Shown in pieces: positions 6,256 through 26,590 of a stretch of 27,387 nt of DNA. Location of the stretch: positions 1 through 27,387 of IMG/VR virus record IMGVR_UViG_3300014890_000018. The stretch is one strand, 5' to 3'. Numbering within the stretch: position 1 is the stretch's first letter; every line of letters begins with the position of its first letter. Below the pieces are notes generated by a model that saw only the letters and a list, made by a program, of their open reading frames with translations, had not been told where the DNA came from and made no database searches. The position numbers and the translations under genes are program-made. The stretch is from a virus. Its lineage: Duplodnaviria > Heunggongvirae > Uroviricota > Caudoviricetes.

Positions 6256-6267
6256 GTGACATGTCAC
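6256..6267. repeat. 12-bp perfect palindrome GTGACATGTCAC, copy 1 of 3
   Basis: Exact string; identical copies at 23979-23990 and 26244-26255; each sits beside an intrinsic-terminator hairpin at a junction between gene modules. Confidence 0.8.
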
Positions 6268-20704: not shown

Positions 20705-20997
20705 TCCTGTTCACTGGCCTCTTTGGCCATCTTCAAATACTGTTCAGGGCAATGCGCCATAACGCGCTGAAACAGTTCCAGCGCCAGATTGCGTTGCCCC
20801 TCATTAAATGCCATTGCCATAGCGTCCATCGGTGAGATAGCGGAAAACACACGGCCTTTCTCCAGCACCGACCAGACAACGCGACGCCCCTGTTCACTGC
20901 TCATGACAAAGCGAATGTCATCAATTTCACGCTGTGCCATGTCACGTTGCTTACGGGCGTTTTCTTCTTTCATTTGATCGTCTTCGTAATCTGTCAT
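20701..20997 (-). CDS. Hypothetical small protein between portal and scaffold (98 aa)
   Basis: Translationally coupled at both ends (overlaps the portal stop and the scaffold start); acidic. Confidence 0.5.
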   Translation of the reverse strand: MTDYEDDQMKEENARKQRDMAQREIDDIRFVMSSEQGRRVVWSVLEKGRVFSAISPMDAMAMAFNEGQRNLALELFQRVMAHCPEQYLKMAKEASEQE

Positions 20998-22673
20998 TGT
21001 GATTGCCCACCCTGACCACTAACTGCATTCGCCATAGCTGACAAAACACTCGGATCCGAAGTTTTAGCTTCGCTTAGCGTCTTGGCACCCTGTGCCGCCG
21101 CCATCCCCATCGCCATCATTTGTTGCTGCTGTTGTTGCTGTGCCCGTTGCTGGCGAGCCTGCTCAACCTGTTCCTGCGGAACAATGACGGTTGGAGACAC
21201 TCCGGACATATCAGCGAATGCATCGATCGCCTGATCAACGTTGAGTTTGTCGAGAGCTTCTGGTTTCGCTTGCGCAAGTTGACCAATGAAGTTAACCGTG
21301 GACGCCAGACTGGACAGGCCGATAGACTTCTGCGCCTGAGCCATGACGGAAATGTATTCGACCTTCAGGGGCATGCCTTCCATCGCGTCAGGCGGTGGCG
21401 GCAGCATGTTTTTACGCACCATCATCGAGAAAGCGCGGTCAATGAGAGGATTAAGACATTCGTCGTTCAGACGCTCCAGAACCGGCCCCAACATCAGAAG
21501 TTTTTCTTCTTTCATTTCGATCACTGCTTCAACAGGCATCGAGCGGGTATTGATGTTGTGCAACATCATGAACAGATCGACAAAGTAGGCGCTGTTAATG
21601 ATTTGGCGAGTGTCCTGAATGTCTGCTACCAGATCTGCTGTACTGGGGTTAACCAGATAAGCAGGCCTGAAACCATCCTGACCAGTAATCTGATCGATAT
21701 ACGTGATGTCGCCAGGAAGAAGGGATGCGCGCTGATTCTTGAGGGAAGTCGGAGCAACCATCGGCGGATTGGTGGCTTTATCAATCAACTGCGACTTACG
21801 CTTCTGGAGAAGCTGCAATGCCTTAACAGGTCCAAGCGCCAGCATACCCGGGCATGATGATCCATAAACATCTTCGCCGTTAACTTCCCAGCGCGGAGCC
21901 ATAATTGGAAACTCATCGAATCCGGACTCACGCAACAACTTGTCGTTATCGCCGCCAACCTCGTAATAAACCGATTTGAATGGCTTGTTCTTGCTATCCA
22001 GCTTCGATGTATCGCGGTCAATGTTCGGGTAAACCGAATGCATCACTTCAATCCACTTCTCGTAGGTGCCGCTTTCCCACATGCTTTTTACGGATTCGCT
22101 GACGTTATTTAGCCCGAACTCCTGAACAAGCTGACGAACAGTCATAGAGAACTTGCGAAAACAGGTGTCCACACTGCCACGAGGTGAGTTAGCCAGGTAG
22201 TAACTGCCTATAGGGAATGGCATTGTGCGAATGATGTCCTCGTCATCATCCAGCACCGCCATTGCACCAGTGCTGTATGTGCCGAGGCTTCCGTATAACT
22301 GCGGCAGCGACTGATAGAGATTCGACTTATTGAACATATCGTTCATGCGGTTCTGCACCGCCTCAAGCCACAACTTAACAGGGCCATAATCCATCATTTC
22401 AGGATCTGGCGTAGCCAGGCGAAACCACGGACGCGCGGGGCTTGTGATGCCTGACATCATGCCGCTGGCGAGAGTGCGCGCCGCCATAGTCCCGGTCGAA
22501 TCAATAATGCGTGTATTGCGTCGATCGTTACGGTTGACCTCAGAAGTCAGAAAGCGGGAACCACGCGGGTTGATGTAATCACTCAACTCGCGCCAGTGCG
22601 GCTCGAACGACTGACGCTCGCTTTCAAGTTGTGCGAACTGTTTGTTCAATCGCTCTTTAGTTGTTTCCGCCAT
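20994..22673 (-). CDS. Portal (head-to-tail connector) protein, T7-type (559 aa)
   Basis: Size and position downstream of the terminase genes; Gln-rich C-terminal tail (QQRAQQQQQQQMMAMGMAAAQ); RBS GGAG 8 nt upstream. Confidence 0.85.
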   Translation of the reverse strand: MAETTKERLNKQFAQLESERQSFEPHWRELSDYINPRGSRFLTSEVNRNDRRNTRIIDSTGTMAARTLASGMMSGITSPARPWFRLATPDPEMMDYGPVKLWLEAVQNRMNDMFNKSNLYQSLPQLYGSLGTYSTGAMAVLDDDEDIIRTMPFPIGSYYLANSPRGSVDTCFRKFSMTVRQLVQEFGLNNVSESVKSMWESGTYEKWIEVMHSVYPNIDRDTSKLDSKNKPFKSVYYEVGGDNDKLLRESGFDEFPIMAPRWEVNGEDVYGSSCPGMLALGPVKALQLLQKRKSQLIDKATNPPMVAPTSLKNQRASLLPGDITYIDQITGQDGFRPAYLVNPSTADLVADIQDTRQIINSAYFVDLFMMLHNINTRSMPVEAVIEMKEEKLLMLGPVLERLNDECLNPLIDRAFSMMVRKNMLPPPPDAMEGMPLKVEYISVMAQAQKSIGLSSLASTVNFIGQLAQAKPEALDKLNVDQAIDAFADMSGVSPTVIVPQEQVEQARQQRAQQQQQQQMMAMGMAAAQGAKTLSEAKTSDPSVLSAMANAVSGQGGQSQ

Positions 22674-22687
22674 TTCAATGACTCCGG

Positions 22688-22894
22688 TTACTGACCAAGT
22701 AGCGTTTTACCGCTGGTATTAGCGGTTGATGTGTCGCCCTGAGAACCGGTAAGCAGCGTAGAACTACGACCAGCAGCAGCGCGACGACGACGTGTTTCTT
22801 CGTCGCGGGCATCAACAACGGCGGCATCCTGCTCCTGTGGTGCTGCCTGAACTTCTGGTGTTGCAGGCACTGATGGTGAGCTACCCATGCACAT
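22688..22894 (-). CDS. Possible small ORF upstream of portal (68 aa), low-complexity
   Basis: ATG preceded by the same 11-nt translation-initiation sequence as the portal gene (GGAGTCATTGA + 1 nt + ATG); its stop overlaps the portal RBS. Protein is low-complexity, so coding status is uncertain. Confidence 0.35.
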   Translation of the reverse strand: MCMGSSPSVPATPEVQAAPQEQDAAVVDARDEETRRRRAAAGRSSTLLTGSQGDTSTANTSGKTLLGQ

Positions 22895-22922
22895 ATCAAT
22901 GACTCCGTACGCAATTAAATTA

Positions 22923-22998
22923 TTACCAATTTAACCACATATGATTTATTTATCGTAGATAGTTGACATTTAACGCACAAATTATTACCTTTCAGGTA
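22923..22998. promoter_or_regulatory. Divergent regulatory region B (between the portal unit and the tRNA cassette) carrying the shared motifs AACCACATATG and ATTACCTTTCAGGT
   Basis: AACCACATATG at 22934-22944; ATTACCTTTCAGGT at 22985-22998 containing the inverted repeat TACCT-TTC-AGGTA; TTGACA at 22964-22969 on the plus strand; minus strand reads TTGTGC-N17-TACGAT (promoter-like). Confidence 0.5.
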
Positions 22999-23049
22999 AG
23001 CAAAGAGTTCATTCCGGTTATTAACCTGACTGGCTTGTCGTTAAATTGA

Positions 23050-23321
23050 ACAGGTGGAGTGAGCTTTTATTTTGAGCAGTACGGCGTATGGCACATGCGA
23101 CGATAGCGGTCTGGATACGTTTAAGGGGCACCCTCCCTTGCTCGGGCAAACGAACCAGGTAGCCGGAATGTGCAAGTCGAGCGGTTTTATTCCGCGCACG
23201 GGGATTCACCATCCCGGCGATTCGGTGTGACGCCTCGGAAGAGACGAGGGTACAACGATGAGAGCATTTATGGAGCCGCGACAAAGTGTGGCGCCTTAAC
23301 AGGCTAAGTGCTCTCAGCGTT
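23050..23321 (+). ncRNA. Candidate structured non-coding RNA or long tRNA leader upstream of tRNA-Arg
   Basis: About 270 bp of GC-rich sequence with several local hairpins (gcgg-ttttatt-ccgc; cggg-N9-cccg; cctcg-gaagaga-cgagg) and no convincing ORF on either strand; sits between a promoter-like region and the tRNA. Confidence 0.3.
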
Positions 23322-23398
23322 GTGGCATTAGCTCAGCTGGACAGAGCAACCGCCTTCTAAGCGGTTGGTCGCAGGTTCGAATCCTGCATGCCACGCCA
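23322..23398 (+). tRNA. tRNA-Arg (anticodon UCU, reads AGA), phage-encoded
   Basis: 77-nt cloverleaf read by hand: acceptor GTGGCAT/ATGCCAC, D-stem GCTC/GAGC, anticodon stem ACCGC/GCGGT with loop CTTCTAA (anticodon TCT), T-stem GCAGG/CCTGC with loop TTCGAAT, discriminator G, encoded CCA. Resembles the enterobacterial argU tRNA but differs in the stems. Confidence 0.9.
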
Positions 23399-23441
23399 GA
23401 ATCACGCCTAAGGACCGTGATGCCAGAAGTTCCAGGGGCTT

Positions 23442-23483
23442 GGCGGTGATGGTTTCCCTTGAAGGACTATCACCGCCCTTTTT
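23442..23483 (+). terminator. Rho-independent terminator after the tRNA
   Basis: 9-bp stem ggcggtgat / atcaccgcc with an 18-nt loop, followed by cTTTTT. Confidence 0.5.
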
Positions 23484-23561
23484 ACAGCAGGACGCCATTG
23501 CGATGACTTCATGCTGTAAACCAGTACAGCCACGGAAGGCATAACTCATTGCTTCCAGTTC

Positions 23562-23584
23562 GCCCGGTTCGCCGGGCATTTTTT
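23562..23584 (+). terminator. Strong rho-independent terminator (UUCG tetraloop) immediately upstream of the 125-aa ORF
   Basis: Stem gcccgg / ccgggc, loop ttcg, then aTTTTTT; only 12 nt before the ATG at 23597. Confidence 0.65.
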
Positions 23585-23596
23585 AAAGGTGAGATT

Positions 23597-23974
23597 ATGA
23601 ACGACCAGCAAATCGAAAAAGAAATCGTTGAGAAAGGCAAAACGGCACCGCGAATCACCCCGCAGCACATCGAAGACGTGATTATTAGTGAGCACTATTT
23701 CACGGCTGCAGAAGGGGTTCATGGCGCTAATGAGCTTTTAAAACCGCATGAAAGCCCAATTGACTATTACCAGGAAGCGCACCCTGCTGAGTCACTTCTG
23801 ACCTTCTGCGTTCTGGTGCTGCGCAACGGATTTACTGTAACCGGAGAAAGCGCCTGTGCAAGCCCGGAAAACTTTGATGCAGAAATTGGTCGGAAGATTG
23901 CCCGGCAGAATGCTGTAAACAAAATCTGGATGCTTGAAGGTTACTTGCTGAAGCAGAAGTTAAGCGAGCAATAA
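23597..23974 (+). CDS. Hypothetical protein (125 aa) in the tRNA cassette, function unknown
   Basis: ATG at 23597 with RBS AAAGGTGAG 4-12 nt upstream (the track ORF starts earlier at 23549); plus strand, antisense to the structural operon; followed by palindrome and terminator. Confidence 0.6.
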   Translation: MNDQQIEKEIVEKGKTAPRITPQHIEDVIISEHYFTAAEGVHGANELLKPHESPIDYYQEAHPAESLLTFCVLVLRNGFTVTGESACASPENFDAEIGRKIARQNAVNKIWMLEGYLLKQKLSEQ

Positions 23975-23978
23975 CACC

Positions 23979-23990
23979 GTGACATGTCAC
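23979..23990. repeat. 12-bp perfect palindrome GTGACATGTCAC, copy 2 of 3
   Basis: Exact string 5 nt after the stop of the 125-aa ORF and 4 nt before a terminator hairpin; between the convergent 125-aa ORF and TerL. Confidence 0.8.
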
Positions 23991-23994
23991 AAAC

Positions 23995-24021
23995 AGCCAG
24001 CCTATGAGCTGGCTTTGTTTT
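23995..24021 (+). terminator. Rho-independent terminator ending the plus-strand tRNA/ORF cassette
   Basis: Stem agccagc / gctggct with loop ctatga, followed by ttgtttt. Confidence 0.55.
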
Positions 24022-24064
24022 ATCCTCATCAGAGGATATCAACGACATTATCCCCACCAGCGGA

Positions 24065-25540
24065 TTAAGCATAAGGGTCATAATCCGTTATGGCCCTTCC
24101 CTGCTGGCTTTGCTGTCCTGGTATATTTATGCGTTTCGAGACCGGGAAAGCAAACGTCAGCAGTAGCGCATCGCCTTTACCCGGAGAACGCCCAAGCCGC
24201 TCCTTGATATCTTCCTTCGGTTCGATAACGACTTTACCGTCCACTCGAACTTTGTACTCTGCCGCCGACAGGTCGTCTGCAGTTTCCTGGTCATCCAGCA
24301 TGCCGCCGAGCCTCAGCCATGTCTTGCATGAGTTGAACATCTCCCCACGCTTGTTAAGCATCTGCGGGTCAGTGGACGCACCGCCGAACGGAACAAGTTG
24401 CCATGTACGTCCCCAGCCATCACCGATTGACTTCAAACCGGTTCCGTAACCGAAGTCGATGAACACTGCGTCAGCCTGGTACTGGTCTTCAAAGTCAGCG
24501 ATACGCTTCGCCATAATCAGATCGTCAGTGGTCTTGTTGCCAGTCCATAGCACCTTACTGTGCAGCCCCTGCCGCAGGTATATCACAGCGTCATCAACGC
24601 CGGAGTATGCCGGGTCAACGCCGATTATCACCGGAGCATGTGCAACCTGCGCAGCGGTTACCACCCGTTTCATTGCCTCGTCAGTAAGGCCGGTAGGGAT
24701 AAACTGTAATTCAGATGCATCAGGGAATATGCCGCGCACACGGATTTTAACGAAGTCGCTGTCTTCCCCGTAGTCATCAACCCATTTCTGCAACTGCTGT
24801 TTGTTAGTGCCTTCCACCGTCCGGCTGTCAATCTGCGCAGTTTTCCAGCGGTGTTTATATTTGCGGAAACATTCGCGGAAACGCCCGGTGTTACGTGTAG
24901 GGTTTCCGAACGCCACCCAGATAATCTCAGTGTCTTCGTCCGTAAGCGCACCCTCAGCAACTTCCCACACCAGATCCGCAATGTTCGACGCTTCATCGAA
25001 TACCACGATGATGCGTTTGCGCTCGTTGTGTAGTCCGGCGAATGCCTCAGTGTTGTGCTCAGACCAGGGTATTGCGTCAGCTCGCCACCGCTTGTCGTGC
25101 CCAGGGTCATTGCTGTACATCGCGGTAGCGGTACAGGTAAACCAGTCTTTCGTGATAGCAAGGTTCGACCACTTGATAATTTCCGGCCAGGTCTTCGTTC
25201 GTAGCTGGTTGTCGGTGTTGGCGGTCACCACGACCTTACAATCCTCGCAAGTGGACATGCCCCAGTTGATCAGCATTGAGATGAATGCGGATTTACCAAT
25301 ACCGTGACCAGAAGCACGTGCCAGCATAAGCGGCTGATATCGCGTCTCTGGATTCTGCAGGTGATCACGTATCTCTCGGAACGCATCGGCCTGCCACTGA
25401 CGTGGACCGGTGGCATGTGCCAGTTCAGTACCCTCTTCCCCCCACGGGAACGCATAGAGGGCATAGCCAAGCGGATCGTGAGTGAACCCTGCAATATCCT
25501 CGATTAACTGCTCTTCAGGAGATAACGCTGTATCTGTCAC
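24065..25540 (-). CDS. Terminase large subunit (491 aa)
   Basis: Walker A-type motif ARASGHGIGKSAF near the N-terminus, acidic nuclease-type C-terminal half, ATGA-type overlap with the TerS stop. Confidence 0.9.
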   Translation of the reverse strand: MTDTALSPEEQLIEDIAGFTHDPLGYALYAFPWGEEGTELAHATGPRQWQADAFREIRDHLQNPETRYQPLMLARASGHGIGKSAFISMLINWGMSTCEDCKVVVTANTDNQLRTKTWPEIIKWSNLAITKDWFTCTATAMYSNDPGHDKRWRADAIPWSEHNTEAFAGLHNERKRIIVVFDEASNIADLVWEVAEGALTDEDTEIIWVAFGNPTRNTGRFRECFRKYKHRWKTAQIDSRTVEGTNKQQLQKWVDDYGEDSDFVKIRVRGIFPDASELQFIPTGLTDEAMKRVVTAAQVAHAPVIIGVDPAYSGVDDAVIYLRQGLHSKVLWTGNKTTDDLIMAKRIADFEDQYQADAVFIDFGYGTGLKSIGDGWGRTWQLVPFGGASTDPQMLNKRGEMFNSCKTWLRLGGMLDDQETADDLSAAEYKVRVDGKVVIEPKEDIKERLGRSPGKGDALLLTFAFPVSKRINIPGQQSQQGRAITDYDPYA

Positions 25541-26175: not shown

Positions 26176-26202
26176 CAAAATAAAGCCGCCATAGTTGGCG
26201 GC
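26176..26202 (-). terminator. Rho-independent terminator on the minus strand, upstream of the terminase genes
   Basis: Perfect 7-bp stem gccgcca / tggcggc with 4-nt loop at 26185-26202, followed on the minus strand by TTTATTTTG. Confidence 0.6.
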
Positions 26203-26243
26203 AGTATTCAAAACACATCAAATTCATCATGCATAATATACTC

Positions 26244-26255
26244 GTGACATGTCAC
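26244..26255. repeat. 12-bp perfect palindrome GTGACATGTCAC, copy 3 of 3
   Basis: Exact string overlapping the stop codon of the 112-aa gene and about 40 bp from the terminator hairpin upstream of TerS. Confidence 0.8.
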
Positions 26256-26590
26256 ACTATTAATTTCGTTTCATGCCAGCCTTTAGTCACCCAGCATTGC
26301 GAGTCACCATTACACGGGCATGAATTAACTGGCACTCTCTCGCCGCACTTACCGCAACGTTTTCTGCTGATCGATTTTATACGCCCGCGCACGCGTGCAT
26401 CATCCTGGCGGATCAGTAACGCTATATACTCACCAAATTCGTAAGGCGCACGCCCGGGGCGACGCGCGGCACAGTTACGCTCCAGCATTTCAATTTCCTG
26501 AGCATCAAGCACAATCTCCAGTTTACGCACACCAGATGCAGCTTGTCTGGCTCTCTGAGCGGCTTTGCGCTCTGCTGCTGATTTAGCCAT
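26252..26590 (-). CDS. Hypothetical small protein with C-terminal Cys-rich (zinc-ribbon-like) motif, 112 aa
   Basis: ATG at 26590 (the track start at 26593 is a TTG); basic N-terminal helical region; C-terminal CGKCGERVPVNSCPCNGDSQC cluster; overlaps the upstream ASCH-like gene. Confidence 0.5.
   Translation of the reverse strand: MAKSAAERKAAQRARQAASGVRKLEIVLDAQEIEMLERNCAARRPGRAPYEFGEYIALLIRQDDARVRGRIKSISRKRCGKCGERVPVNSCPCNGDSQCWVTKGWHETKLIV

What the first reader, a model, noticed from the sequence alone, without database searches (positions are those of the whole stretch)
23597..23974. 125-aa ORF of unknown function encoded antisense to the morphogenesis operon
It has a good RBS and a clean ORF, is oriented against the structural genes, and is flanked by a terminator and a palindrome. 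I could not assign a family from the sequence. A lysogeny-expressed accessory function such as superinfection exclusion, anti-defence or a regulator is plausible but unproven.
Basis: inference. Interest (0 to 1): 0.45.

Follow-up and report, generated by a model that had tools for sequence, protein, structure and literature searches.

The report
Known anti-CBASS sponge gene (Acb4)
The 125-codon gene is real and belongs to Acb4, a published family of small phage proteins that soak up the bacterium's cyclic-nucleotide alarm signals, so it is a known kind of anti-defence gene and not a mystery ORF.

Summary
The ORF at 23597..23974 (+) is present as described. It has a Shine-Dalgarno site, runs opposite to terL and portal, and is flanked by terminator-like hairpins and a 12-bp palindrome. 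It is a real gene: against Sf6 gene 66 the C-terminal core keeps 58 of 59 residues despite 17 synonymous codon changes.

The window is a phiV10/epsilon15-like temperate podophage. The gene sits in a swappable cargo slot between tRNA-Arg and terL. In other E. coli prophages that slot holds a Tad2-like sponge, an uncharacterised 139-140-aa family, or nothing.

Verdict: already known, low interest. Lysogenic expression is untested.

Open points:
- the promoter and timing of expression
- the exact ligands
- a hypervariable insert (residues 38-66)
- a palindrome that occurs three times in the window

The parts
23597..23974 (+). acb4 homolog, 125 aa plus stop. Member of the Phage_gp49_66 / Acb4 family.
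23586..23593 (+). Shine-Dalgarno-like AAGGTGAG
   Evidence: Read from the sequence. Conserved in phiV10 and, with one substitution (AAGGTGTG), in the cargo-less phage phiv142-3.
23708..23794 (+). Codons 38-66: a hypervariable insert between beta1 and beta2
   Evidence: Column entropy is mostly 2-3.6 bits here, against about 0 in the core. At least 37 unrelated insert types occur among 112 close homologs. Within this insert type identity is 93.5%. DNA identity to Sf6 in this stretch is about 40%, against 88-93% in the flanking parts.
23795..23971 (+). Codons 67-125: conserved core (beta2, beta3, the loop carrying ENFD, and the long C-terminal helix)
   Evidence: Nearly invariant columns. This is the stretch that aligns to SPO1 Acb4 residues 37-85.
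23562..23584 (+). Terminator-like hairpin plus T6 just upstream of the RBS. It forms the left edge of the cargo slot.
   Evidence: -12.7 kcal/mol. Conserved whatever the cargo.
23442..23483 (+). 14-bp hairpin plus T-run downstream of the tRNA
   Evidence: -22.8 kcal/mol, z = -3.1.
23322..23398 (+). tRNA-Arg (anticodon TCT), on the same strand as the ORF
   Evidence: ARAGORN. Rfam RF00005, 71.7 bits.
23979..23990 (.). Perfect 12-bp palindrome GTGACATGTCAC. It forms the right edge of the cargo slot.
   Evidence: Two further exact copies lie at 6256-6267 and 26244-26255. Also present in phiV10 and other relatives.
23995..24022 (+). Intrinsic-terminator-like hairpin plus TTTGTTTT after the ORF. 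An A-tract on its 5' side means it may work in both directions.
   Evidence: Annotated as a putative rho-independent terminator in phiV10.
22963..22991 (+). Best candidate promoter on the + strand, TTGACA-17-TACCTT, upstream of the tRNA. Weak evidence.
   Evidence: My own relaxed scan. It falls below the threshold of the standard scan.
24065..25540 (-). Terminase large subunit, convergent with the ORF (context)
   Evidence: phrog_2 and phrog_5902. Homolog of phiV10 p02.
20994..22673 (-). Portal protein (context)
   Evidence: Pfam PF12236 E = 6.7e-187.

Best explanation
The ORF encodes an Acb4-family viral sponge. By analogy with SPO1 Acb4, the small protein should assemble into a homotetramer. 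Pockets at the protomer interfaces would bind cyclic dinucleotides made by host CBASS-type defence: 3'3'-cGAMP, and probably c-di-AMP-type signals as in other Gram-negative members. Sequestering the signal keeps the CBASS effector off and lets the phage replicate.

The gene is an accessory cargo in a swappable slot of a phiV10/epsilon15-like temperate podophage. The slot lies between tRNA-Arg and terL, and the gene is transcribed opposite to the structural genes.

Shown here: family membership, fold, purifying selection, and the slot architecture. Inferred: tetramer formation, ligand binding, the anti-CBASS effect, and when the gene is expressed.
For: Sequence and family:
- Pfam PF13876, 123 bits, E = 6.3e-36.
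- Chang et al. define PF13876 as the Acb4 family. All eight purified homologs bound 3'3'-cGAMP, and those from Gram-negative hosts also bound 3'3'-cAA.
- The window protein is identical to A0A7Z7YMF8 in their Table S3. phiV10, Sf6, epsilon15 and N4 homologs are listed there too.
- 46% identity, E = 1e-30, to N4 Acb4. In the literature N4 Acb4 is necessary and sufficient to trigger the sponge-sensing Panoptes system.
- phmmer against PDB gives 9E4W Acb4 at E = 0.005. BLASTP to SPO1 Acb4 gives E = 6e-9. An independent profile-profile comparison gives probability 96%, E = 3.6e-9, in the same register.

Structure:
- AlphaFold2 model with pLDDT 86.5 and the order helix, beta, insert, beta, beta, long helix.
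- The top 13 Foldseek PDB hits are all 9E4W, then the E-value jumps to 0.12.
- The stacking and hydrophobic ligand contacts F48, F62 and I66 of SPO1 Acb4 are kept as F79, F93 and I97.

Context:
- In other E. coli prophages the same slot carries a Tad2-like anti-Thoeris sponge.
Against: - No binding or phage-challenge data exist for this protein. I could not find out which eight homologs were assayed.
- The polar ligand contacts of SPO1 Acb4 (K36, E49, Y57, T70, K81) are replaced by L67, T80, A88, I101 and M112. The ligand spectrum therefore cannot be read from the sequence.
- Only a monomer could be modelled, so tetramer formation is assumed.
- No sigma-70-type promoter lies next to the ORF, and two terminator-like hairpins lie between the tRNA and the RBS. 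Whether and when the gene is expressed is unknown.
- Whether the host carries CBASS is not known from this window.
Confidence: 0.85

Rival explanations
1. Same fold and same sponge principle, but the main target is not a CBASS cyclic dinucleotide. It could be, for example, a cyclic trinucleotide, a Thoeris gcADPR-type signal, or a type III CRISPR cyclic oligoadenylate. The enterobacterial insert would re-shape the pocket.
For: Five polar ligand contacts of SPO1 Acb4 are not conserved. A 29-residue insert replaces the beta1-beta2 turn that carries guanine-contacting K36 in SPO1 Acb4. The insert differs completely between alleles. The same slot can hold a Tad2-like sponge.
Against: All eight diverse homologs tested by Chang et al. 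bound 3'3'-cGAMP. N4 Acb4, which has an insert at the same place and is 46% identical, acts on cyclic dinucleotide signalling. The hydrophobic base-stacking residues are kept.
Confidence: 0.08
2. A lysogeny-expressed moron that benefits the host or excludes other phages.
For: The ORF runs opposite to the late operon and has its own downstream terminator. The phage is temperate: phiV10 relatives encode integrase and repressor.
Against: The family is an anti-defence sponge family. The protein has no membrane segment or DNA-binding domain, and Pfam gives only PF13876. No promoter of its own was detected. PADLOC defence models give no hit.
Confidence: 0.04
3. A dsRBD-like RNA-binding protein that acts on host or phage RNA, for example in translation or RNase III pathways, and not on nucleotide signals.
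Confidence: 0.03

Closest known systems
Bacillus phage SPO1 Acb4 (PDB 9E4W), founding member of the family
   Different: Only 38% identity over 48 residues. The window protein is 29 residues longer, with a conserved N-terminal helix and a 29-residue insert in place of the SPO1 beta1-beta2 turn. The polar contacts K36, E49, Y57, T70 and K81 are not conserved. SPO1 is a virulent Gram-positive phage.
Escherichia phage N4 Acb4 (gp48/gp49, UniProt A0MZD7)
   Same: 46% identity over 107 residues, E = 1e-30. It has an insert at the same position. It shares T (in place of E49) and C (in place of V56) at pocket positions. It acts in an E. coli host. In the literature it triggers Panoptes, consistent with binding of 2'3'-c-di-AMP.
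   Different: N4 lacks the first 18 residues of the window protein and has a Cys-rich C-terminal tail. N4 is a virulent phage, and its gene sits in an anti-signalling hot spot near the replication genes.
Shigella phage Sf6 gene 66, phiV10 p03 and epsilon15 homologs (uncharacterised orthologs listed as Acb4 homologs)
   Same: 79% identity to Sf6 gp66, with an identical C-terminal core. phiV10 p03 occupies exactly the same slot between tRNA-Arg and terL.
   Different: The insert (residues 38-66) is unrelated in all three. In Sf6 and Huey the gene lies after the lysis genes, on the same strand as the late genes.
Tad2 (PF11195), an anti-Thoeris sponge
   Same: A small homo-oligomeric phage sponge. 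A Tad2-like gene occupies the identical slot, with the same flanks, in the E. coli ECSC054 prophage. Tad2 and Acb4 are often fused in other phages.
   Different: Unrelated fold, and a different ligand class (gcADPR).

Membership tests
Acb4 / Pfam PF13876 (Phage_gp49_66) | Scores above the Pfam gathering threshold over the whole domain | tested here: met
   123.2 bits against a cutoff of 27, E = 6.3e-36, profile positions 1-82 of 82.
Acb4 / Pfam PF13876 (Phage_gp49_66) | Listed in the published catalogue of Acb4 homologs | tested here: met
   Identical in sequence to A0A7Z7YMF8 in Chang et al. Table S3.
Acb4 / Pfam PF13876 (Phage_gp49_66) | Protomer fold: N-terminal helices, three antiparallel beta-strands, long C-terminal helical part, as in 9E4W | tested here: met
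   [not shown]
Acb4 / Pfam PF13876 (Phage_gp49_66) | Homotetrameric pinwheel assembly | not testable with these tools
   Only single-chain prediction is available. The paper reports high-confidence tetramer models for all eight homologs it examined.
Acb4 / Pfam PF13876 (Phage_gp49_66) | Ligand-pocket residues of SPO1 Acb4 (K36, F48, E49, V56, Y57, F62, N63, I66, T70, K81) | tested here: inconclusive
   F48, F62 and I66 are identical. V56 becomes C and N63 becomes D. The five polar contacts are replaced. The pattern is closer to N4 Acb4, which has T and C at the same positions.
Acb4 / Pfam PF13876 (Phage_gp49_66) | Binds 3'3'-cGAMP and inhibits CBASS | not testable with these tools
   Needs biochemistry or a phage challenge.
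Acb4 / Pfam PF13876 (Phage_gp49_66) | Encoded by a phage or prophage | tested here: met
   The window is a phiV10/TL-2011b-like Uetakevirus segment.
Classical moron (promoter, gene and terminator inserted in a late operon) | Own promoter immediately upstream and a terminator downstream | tested here: inconclusive
   The downstream terminator is present. No sigma-70-type promoter lies between the tRNA and the ORF. The best candidate is upstream of the tRNA.

The most novel reading that the evidence does not exclude
Two leads go beyond the known family.

(1) The tRNA-Arg/terL slot of Uetakevirus-like prophages is an anti-defence hot spot, occupied most often by sponge genes. It is present in about 507 of 5426 complete E. 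coli genomes. Its second commonest cargo, the uncharacterised 139-140-aa phrog_4846 family, would then be a new anti-defence protein.

(2) The insert at residues 38-66 of enterobacterial Acb4 replaces the beta1-beta2 turn that carries the guanine-contacting K36 in SPO1 Acb4. It exists as dozens of unrelated types, each conserved within itself. It could set ligand specificity, or let the sponge avoid the decoy signals of guard systems such as Panoptes and Panoptoo.
Probability: 0.3. Interest if true: 0.55.

Novelty: already known. Interest (0 to 1): 0.15.

Why it matters
The window's phage carries a recognised counter-defence gene. That matters for annotation, because databases still label it "Gp49 family" or "hypothetical". 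It also matters for predicting which CBASS-armed or Panoptes/Panoptoo-armed hosts the phage can infect. The finding adds nothing new about Acb4 itself. What may be worth follow-up is the slot architecture, the alternative cargos and the hypervariable insert.

Tried and rejected
- Promoter scans. The standard sigma-70 scan of 22600-24400 found none. A relaxed scan found only TTGACA-17-TACCTT upstream of the tRNA and nothing between the tRNA and the ORF.
- Rfam, E-value mode, on 22700-24200: only the tRNA.
- PADLOC defence models: no hit for the ORF or for the alternative cargos, apart from one marginal hit I regard as meaningless.
- Searching with SPO1 Acb4 for bridging homologs returned only five SPO1-like proteins.
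- The first hhalign run was circular, because alignment A2 contained the SPO1 sequences. I discarded it and repeated the comparison with separate alignments.
- I could not find out which eight homologs Chang et al. assayed.
- The vB_EcoP_ZX5 paper has nothing on transcription of this region.
- Pfam gave nothing for the 113-aa regulator, the 186-aa ORF or the right-end ORFs.
- A diversity-generating retroelement as the source of insert variation was considered and rejected. The types differ in length and are unrelated in sequence, which is not the pattern of adenine-directed substitutions.

Full report
**Observation**

It starts with ATG at 23597, ends with TAA at 23972-23974, and encodes 125 aa. 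AAGGTGAG at 23586-23593 is a good Shine-Dalgarno site. The ORF is on the + strand, while TerS, TerL, the portal and all other structural genes are on the - strand.

Upstream lie tRNA-Arg(TCT) at 23322-23398 on the same strand and two terminator-like hairpins, at 23442-23483 and 23562-23584. The second ends 2 nt before the Shine-Dalgarno-like AAGGTGAG. Downstream lie the perfect palindrome GTGACATGTCAC (23979-23990) and a hairpin plus TTTGTTTT (23995-24022).

ORF length alone proves nothing in this window. Coding is nevertheless certain:
- Pfam E = 6.3e-36.
- Against Sf6 gene 66 the core is 88% identical in DNA but 58 of 59 identical in protein, with 17 synonymous codon differences.

**Where the window comes from**

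It is a segment of a phiV10/TL-2011b-like temperate podophage (genus Uetakevirus, the epsilon15 group). It runs from the lysis cassette and tailspike through the tail, capsid and portal genes to the terminase and a small regulator. The ORF corresponds to PhiV10p03, annotated "similar to gene 66 protein from Sf6". RefSeq calls the E. coli prophage copies "Gp49 family protein".

**What it is**

The protein matches Pfam PF13876 (Phage_gp49_66) end to end. Chang et al. (bioRxiv 10.1101/2024.12.30.630793) found anti-CBASS 4 (Acb4) of Bacillus phage SPO1. They solved its tetrameric structure with 3'3'-cGAMP and identified PF13876, with 1,331 members, as the Acb4 family. All eight homologs they purified bound 3'3'-cGAMP. 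None bound c-di-GMP. Those from Gram-negative hosts also bound 3'3'-c-di-AMP.

Their Table S3 lists the phiV10, Sf6, epsilon15 and N4 proteins. It also lists UniProt A0A7Z7YMF8, whose sequence is identical to the window protein.

Direct comparisons agree:

| Comparison | Result |
|---|---|
| Sf6 gp66 | 79% identity |
| N4 Acb4 | 46% identity, E = 1e-30 |
| SPO1 Acb4 | 38% identity over 48 residues, E = 6e-9 |
| phmmer against PDB | 9E4W at E = 0.005 |
| Profile-profile, SPO1 clade kept separate | probability 96%, E = 3.6e-9, same register |

**How it most likely works**

By homology, the protein forms a homotetramer whose inter-protomer pockets sequester cyclic dinucleotide alarm signals, so that the CBASS effector is not activated.

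Shown here: membership, fold, selection and phage context. Inferred: oligomer formation, ligand binding and the in vivo effect.

Mapping the SPO1 contact residues onto the window protein gives a mixed picture:
- The stacking and hydrophobic contacts are kept: F48, F62 and I66 correspond to F79, F93 and I97.
- The five polar contacts are replaced: K36, E49, Y57, T70 and K81 correspond to L67, T80, A88, I101 and M112.
- N4 Acb4 shares the T and C substitutions.

This fits the relaxed base specificity reported for Gram-negative members, which bind cGAMP plus cAA. It does not allow a firm ligand call. In the literature N4 Acb4 is necessary and sufficient to trigger Panoptes, a guard system that senses sponges through loss of 2'3'-c-di-AMP. 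SPO1 Acb4 triggers Panoptoo. Carrying this gene may therefore also be a liability on hosts with such guards.

**Genomic setting**

The gene lies in a sharply bounded cargo slot. Alignment with phiV10 and phiv142-3 shows near-identical DNA up to the RBS and again from the palindrome onward. phiv142-3 has only an 8-codon remnant between them. phiV10 has a different allele, whose 5' half is only about 60% identical in DNA while its 3' half is 95% identical.

A query made of the two flanks alone matches 507 of 5426 complete E. coli genomes. In 308 of them both flanks lie close together. In a spread sample of those places the cargo was:

| Cargo in the slot | Rows in the sample |
|---|---|
| "Gp49 family protein" (Acb4) | about 19 |
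| 139-aa hypothetical protein (E. coli P4 type) | about 12 |
| Tad2-like protein (E. coli ECSC054; PF11195 E = 3e-24, PDB Tad2 hits near 1e-14) | 1 |
| 61-aa fragment related to that family | 2 |
| Nothing | 2 |

A related 140-aa protein, 68% identical to the 139-aa one and matching the same PHROG family (phrog_4846), fills the slot in E. coli AR_0085, where only the left flank matched. Phage EC.W1-9 carries a 201-aa protein I judge by eye to be membrane/coiled-coil, and SPN1S carries a 64-aa ORF.

A slot that holds either Acb4 or Tad2 behaves as an anti-defence hot spot, which independently supports the functional assignment. The Acb4 gene itself matches in 752 of 5426 E. coli genomes, in several phage types. 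In Sf6 and Huey it lies after the lysis genes, on the late strand.

**Expression**

I found no sigma-70-type promoter between the tRNA and the ORF. The best + strand candidate, TTGACA-17-TACCTT at 22963-22991, lies upstream of the tRNA, and two terminator-like hairpins intervene. Timing is therefore open: lysogenic, early lytic, or dependent on read-through.

**The hypervariable insert**

Among 112 close homologs, columns 41-66 mostly have 2-3.6 bits of entropy, while 67-122 are nearly invariant. At least 37 unrelated insert types of 16-33 residues occur. Within the window's insert type, found in E. coli, Salmonella and Cronobacter, the insert is 93.5% conserved. That equals the core (93.6%) and exceeds the N-terminal helix (84.8%).

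Against Sf6, the N-terminal part is 93% and the core 88% identical in DNA, but the insert only about 40%. The inserts therefore look like discrete, selected cassettes, not a drifting linker.

The insert replaces the beta1-beta2 turn, which in SPO1 Acb4 carries K36, a guanine contact. A role in ligand specificity, or in avoiding guard decoys, is possible but untested. The Acb4 paper mentions only "additional extensions".

**Comparison and novelty**

The protein is a catalogued member of a characterised family. Its nearest experimentally studied relative is N4 Acb4, and the structural reference is SPO1 Acb4. The gene is already known, so interest in the finding as stated is low.

**Other observations**

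The palindrome GTGACATGTCAC occurs exactly three times in the window: at 6256, 23979 and 26244. In phiV10, shuffles give an expectation of about 0.02 for GTGACNNGTCAC. Each copy follows a stop codon and precedes a terminator hairpin by 0-45 nt.

The copy at 26244 lies in the spacer of a promoter-like TTAATA-17-TATATT on the - strand. That promoter sits between the 113-aa regulator gene and terS and is followed by a terminator. The arrangement is reminiscent of lambda Q, PR' and tR'. I did not resolve its function.

Noticed in passing
window 6256-6267, 23979-23990, 26244-26255: The perfect 12-bp palindrome GTGACATGTCAC occurs three times. Each copy lies just after a stop codon and 0-45 nt before an intrinsic-terminator hairpin, at module boundaries: the end of the long structural operon, the end of acb4, and the end of the 113-aa regulator gene. 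It is conserved in phiV10, SPN1S and E. coli prophages. It may be a protein-binding site or a recombination boundary.
   Followed up: partly
window 26176-26263 (- strand): A promoter-like TTAATA-17-TATATT has the palindrome in its spacer. About 30 nt downstream lies the hairpin GCCGCCAACTATGGCGGC plus TTTATTTT. The whole unit sits between the 113-aa 'transcriptional regulator' (phrog_536) and terS. The layout resembles lambda Q/PR'/tR'. It also suggests that the TTG start listed for TerS at 26211 is too far upstream.
   Followed up: partly
L010:798-1094 (E. coli ECSC054, WP_113419321.1): A Tad2-like anti-Thoeris sponge (PF11195 E = 3e-24, PDB Tad2 hits near 1e-14) occupies exactly the same slot between tRNA-Arg and terL.
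   Followed up: yes
[not shown]
   Followed up: partly
L004:2757-3362 (phage EC.W1-9); L003:2916-3110 (SPN1S): Other cargos in the same slot: a 201-aa protein that by eye has hydrophobic segments and a coiled-coil-like tail (phrog_4780), and a 64-aa ORF annotated 'protease'.
   Followed up: partly
window 23328-23579 (- strand): An 83-aa ORF, annotated as CDS PhiV10p04 in phiV10 and as a CDS in EC.W1-9, overlaps the tRNA-Arg gene and both hairpins on the opposite strand. It is probably a spurious gene call. In the phiv142-3 record the tRNA is annotated on the opposite strand to the ARAGORN and Rfam calls.
   Followed up: no
protein P0097 (196 aa): A close homolog carries PF21825 (Sequestin) fused to PF13876. 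This is the Sequestin-Acb4 fusion type described in the literature.
   Followed up: no
L009:1504-1884 (phage Huey): The Sf6-type homolog is annotated 'anti-CRISPR protein' in this record. That label is not supported by the family's known function.
   Followed up: no
window 22895-23321: About 430 bp of non-coding sequence upstream of the tRNA is conserved as far as Salmonella and Klebsiella Uetakevirus-like phages (75-83% identity). It includes a 19-nt inverted repeat at 23252-23270 / 23305-23323. There is no Rfam match.
   Followed up: no
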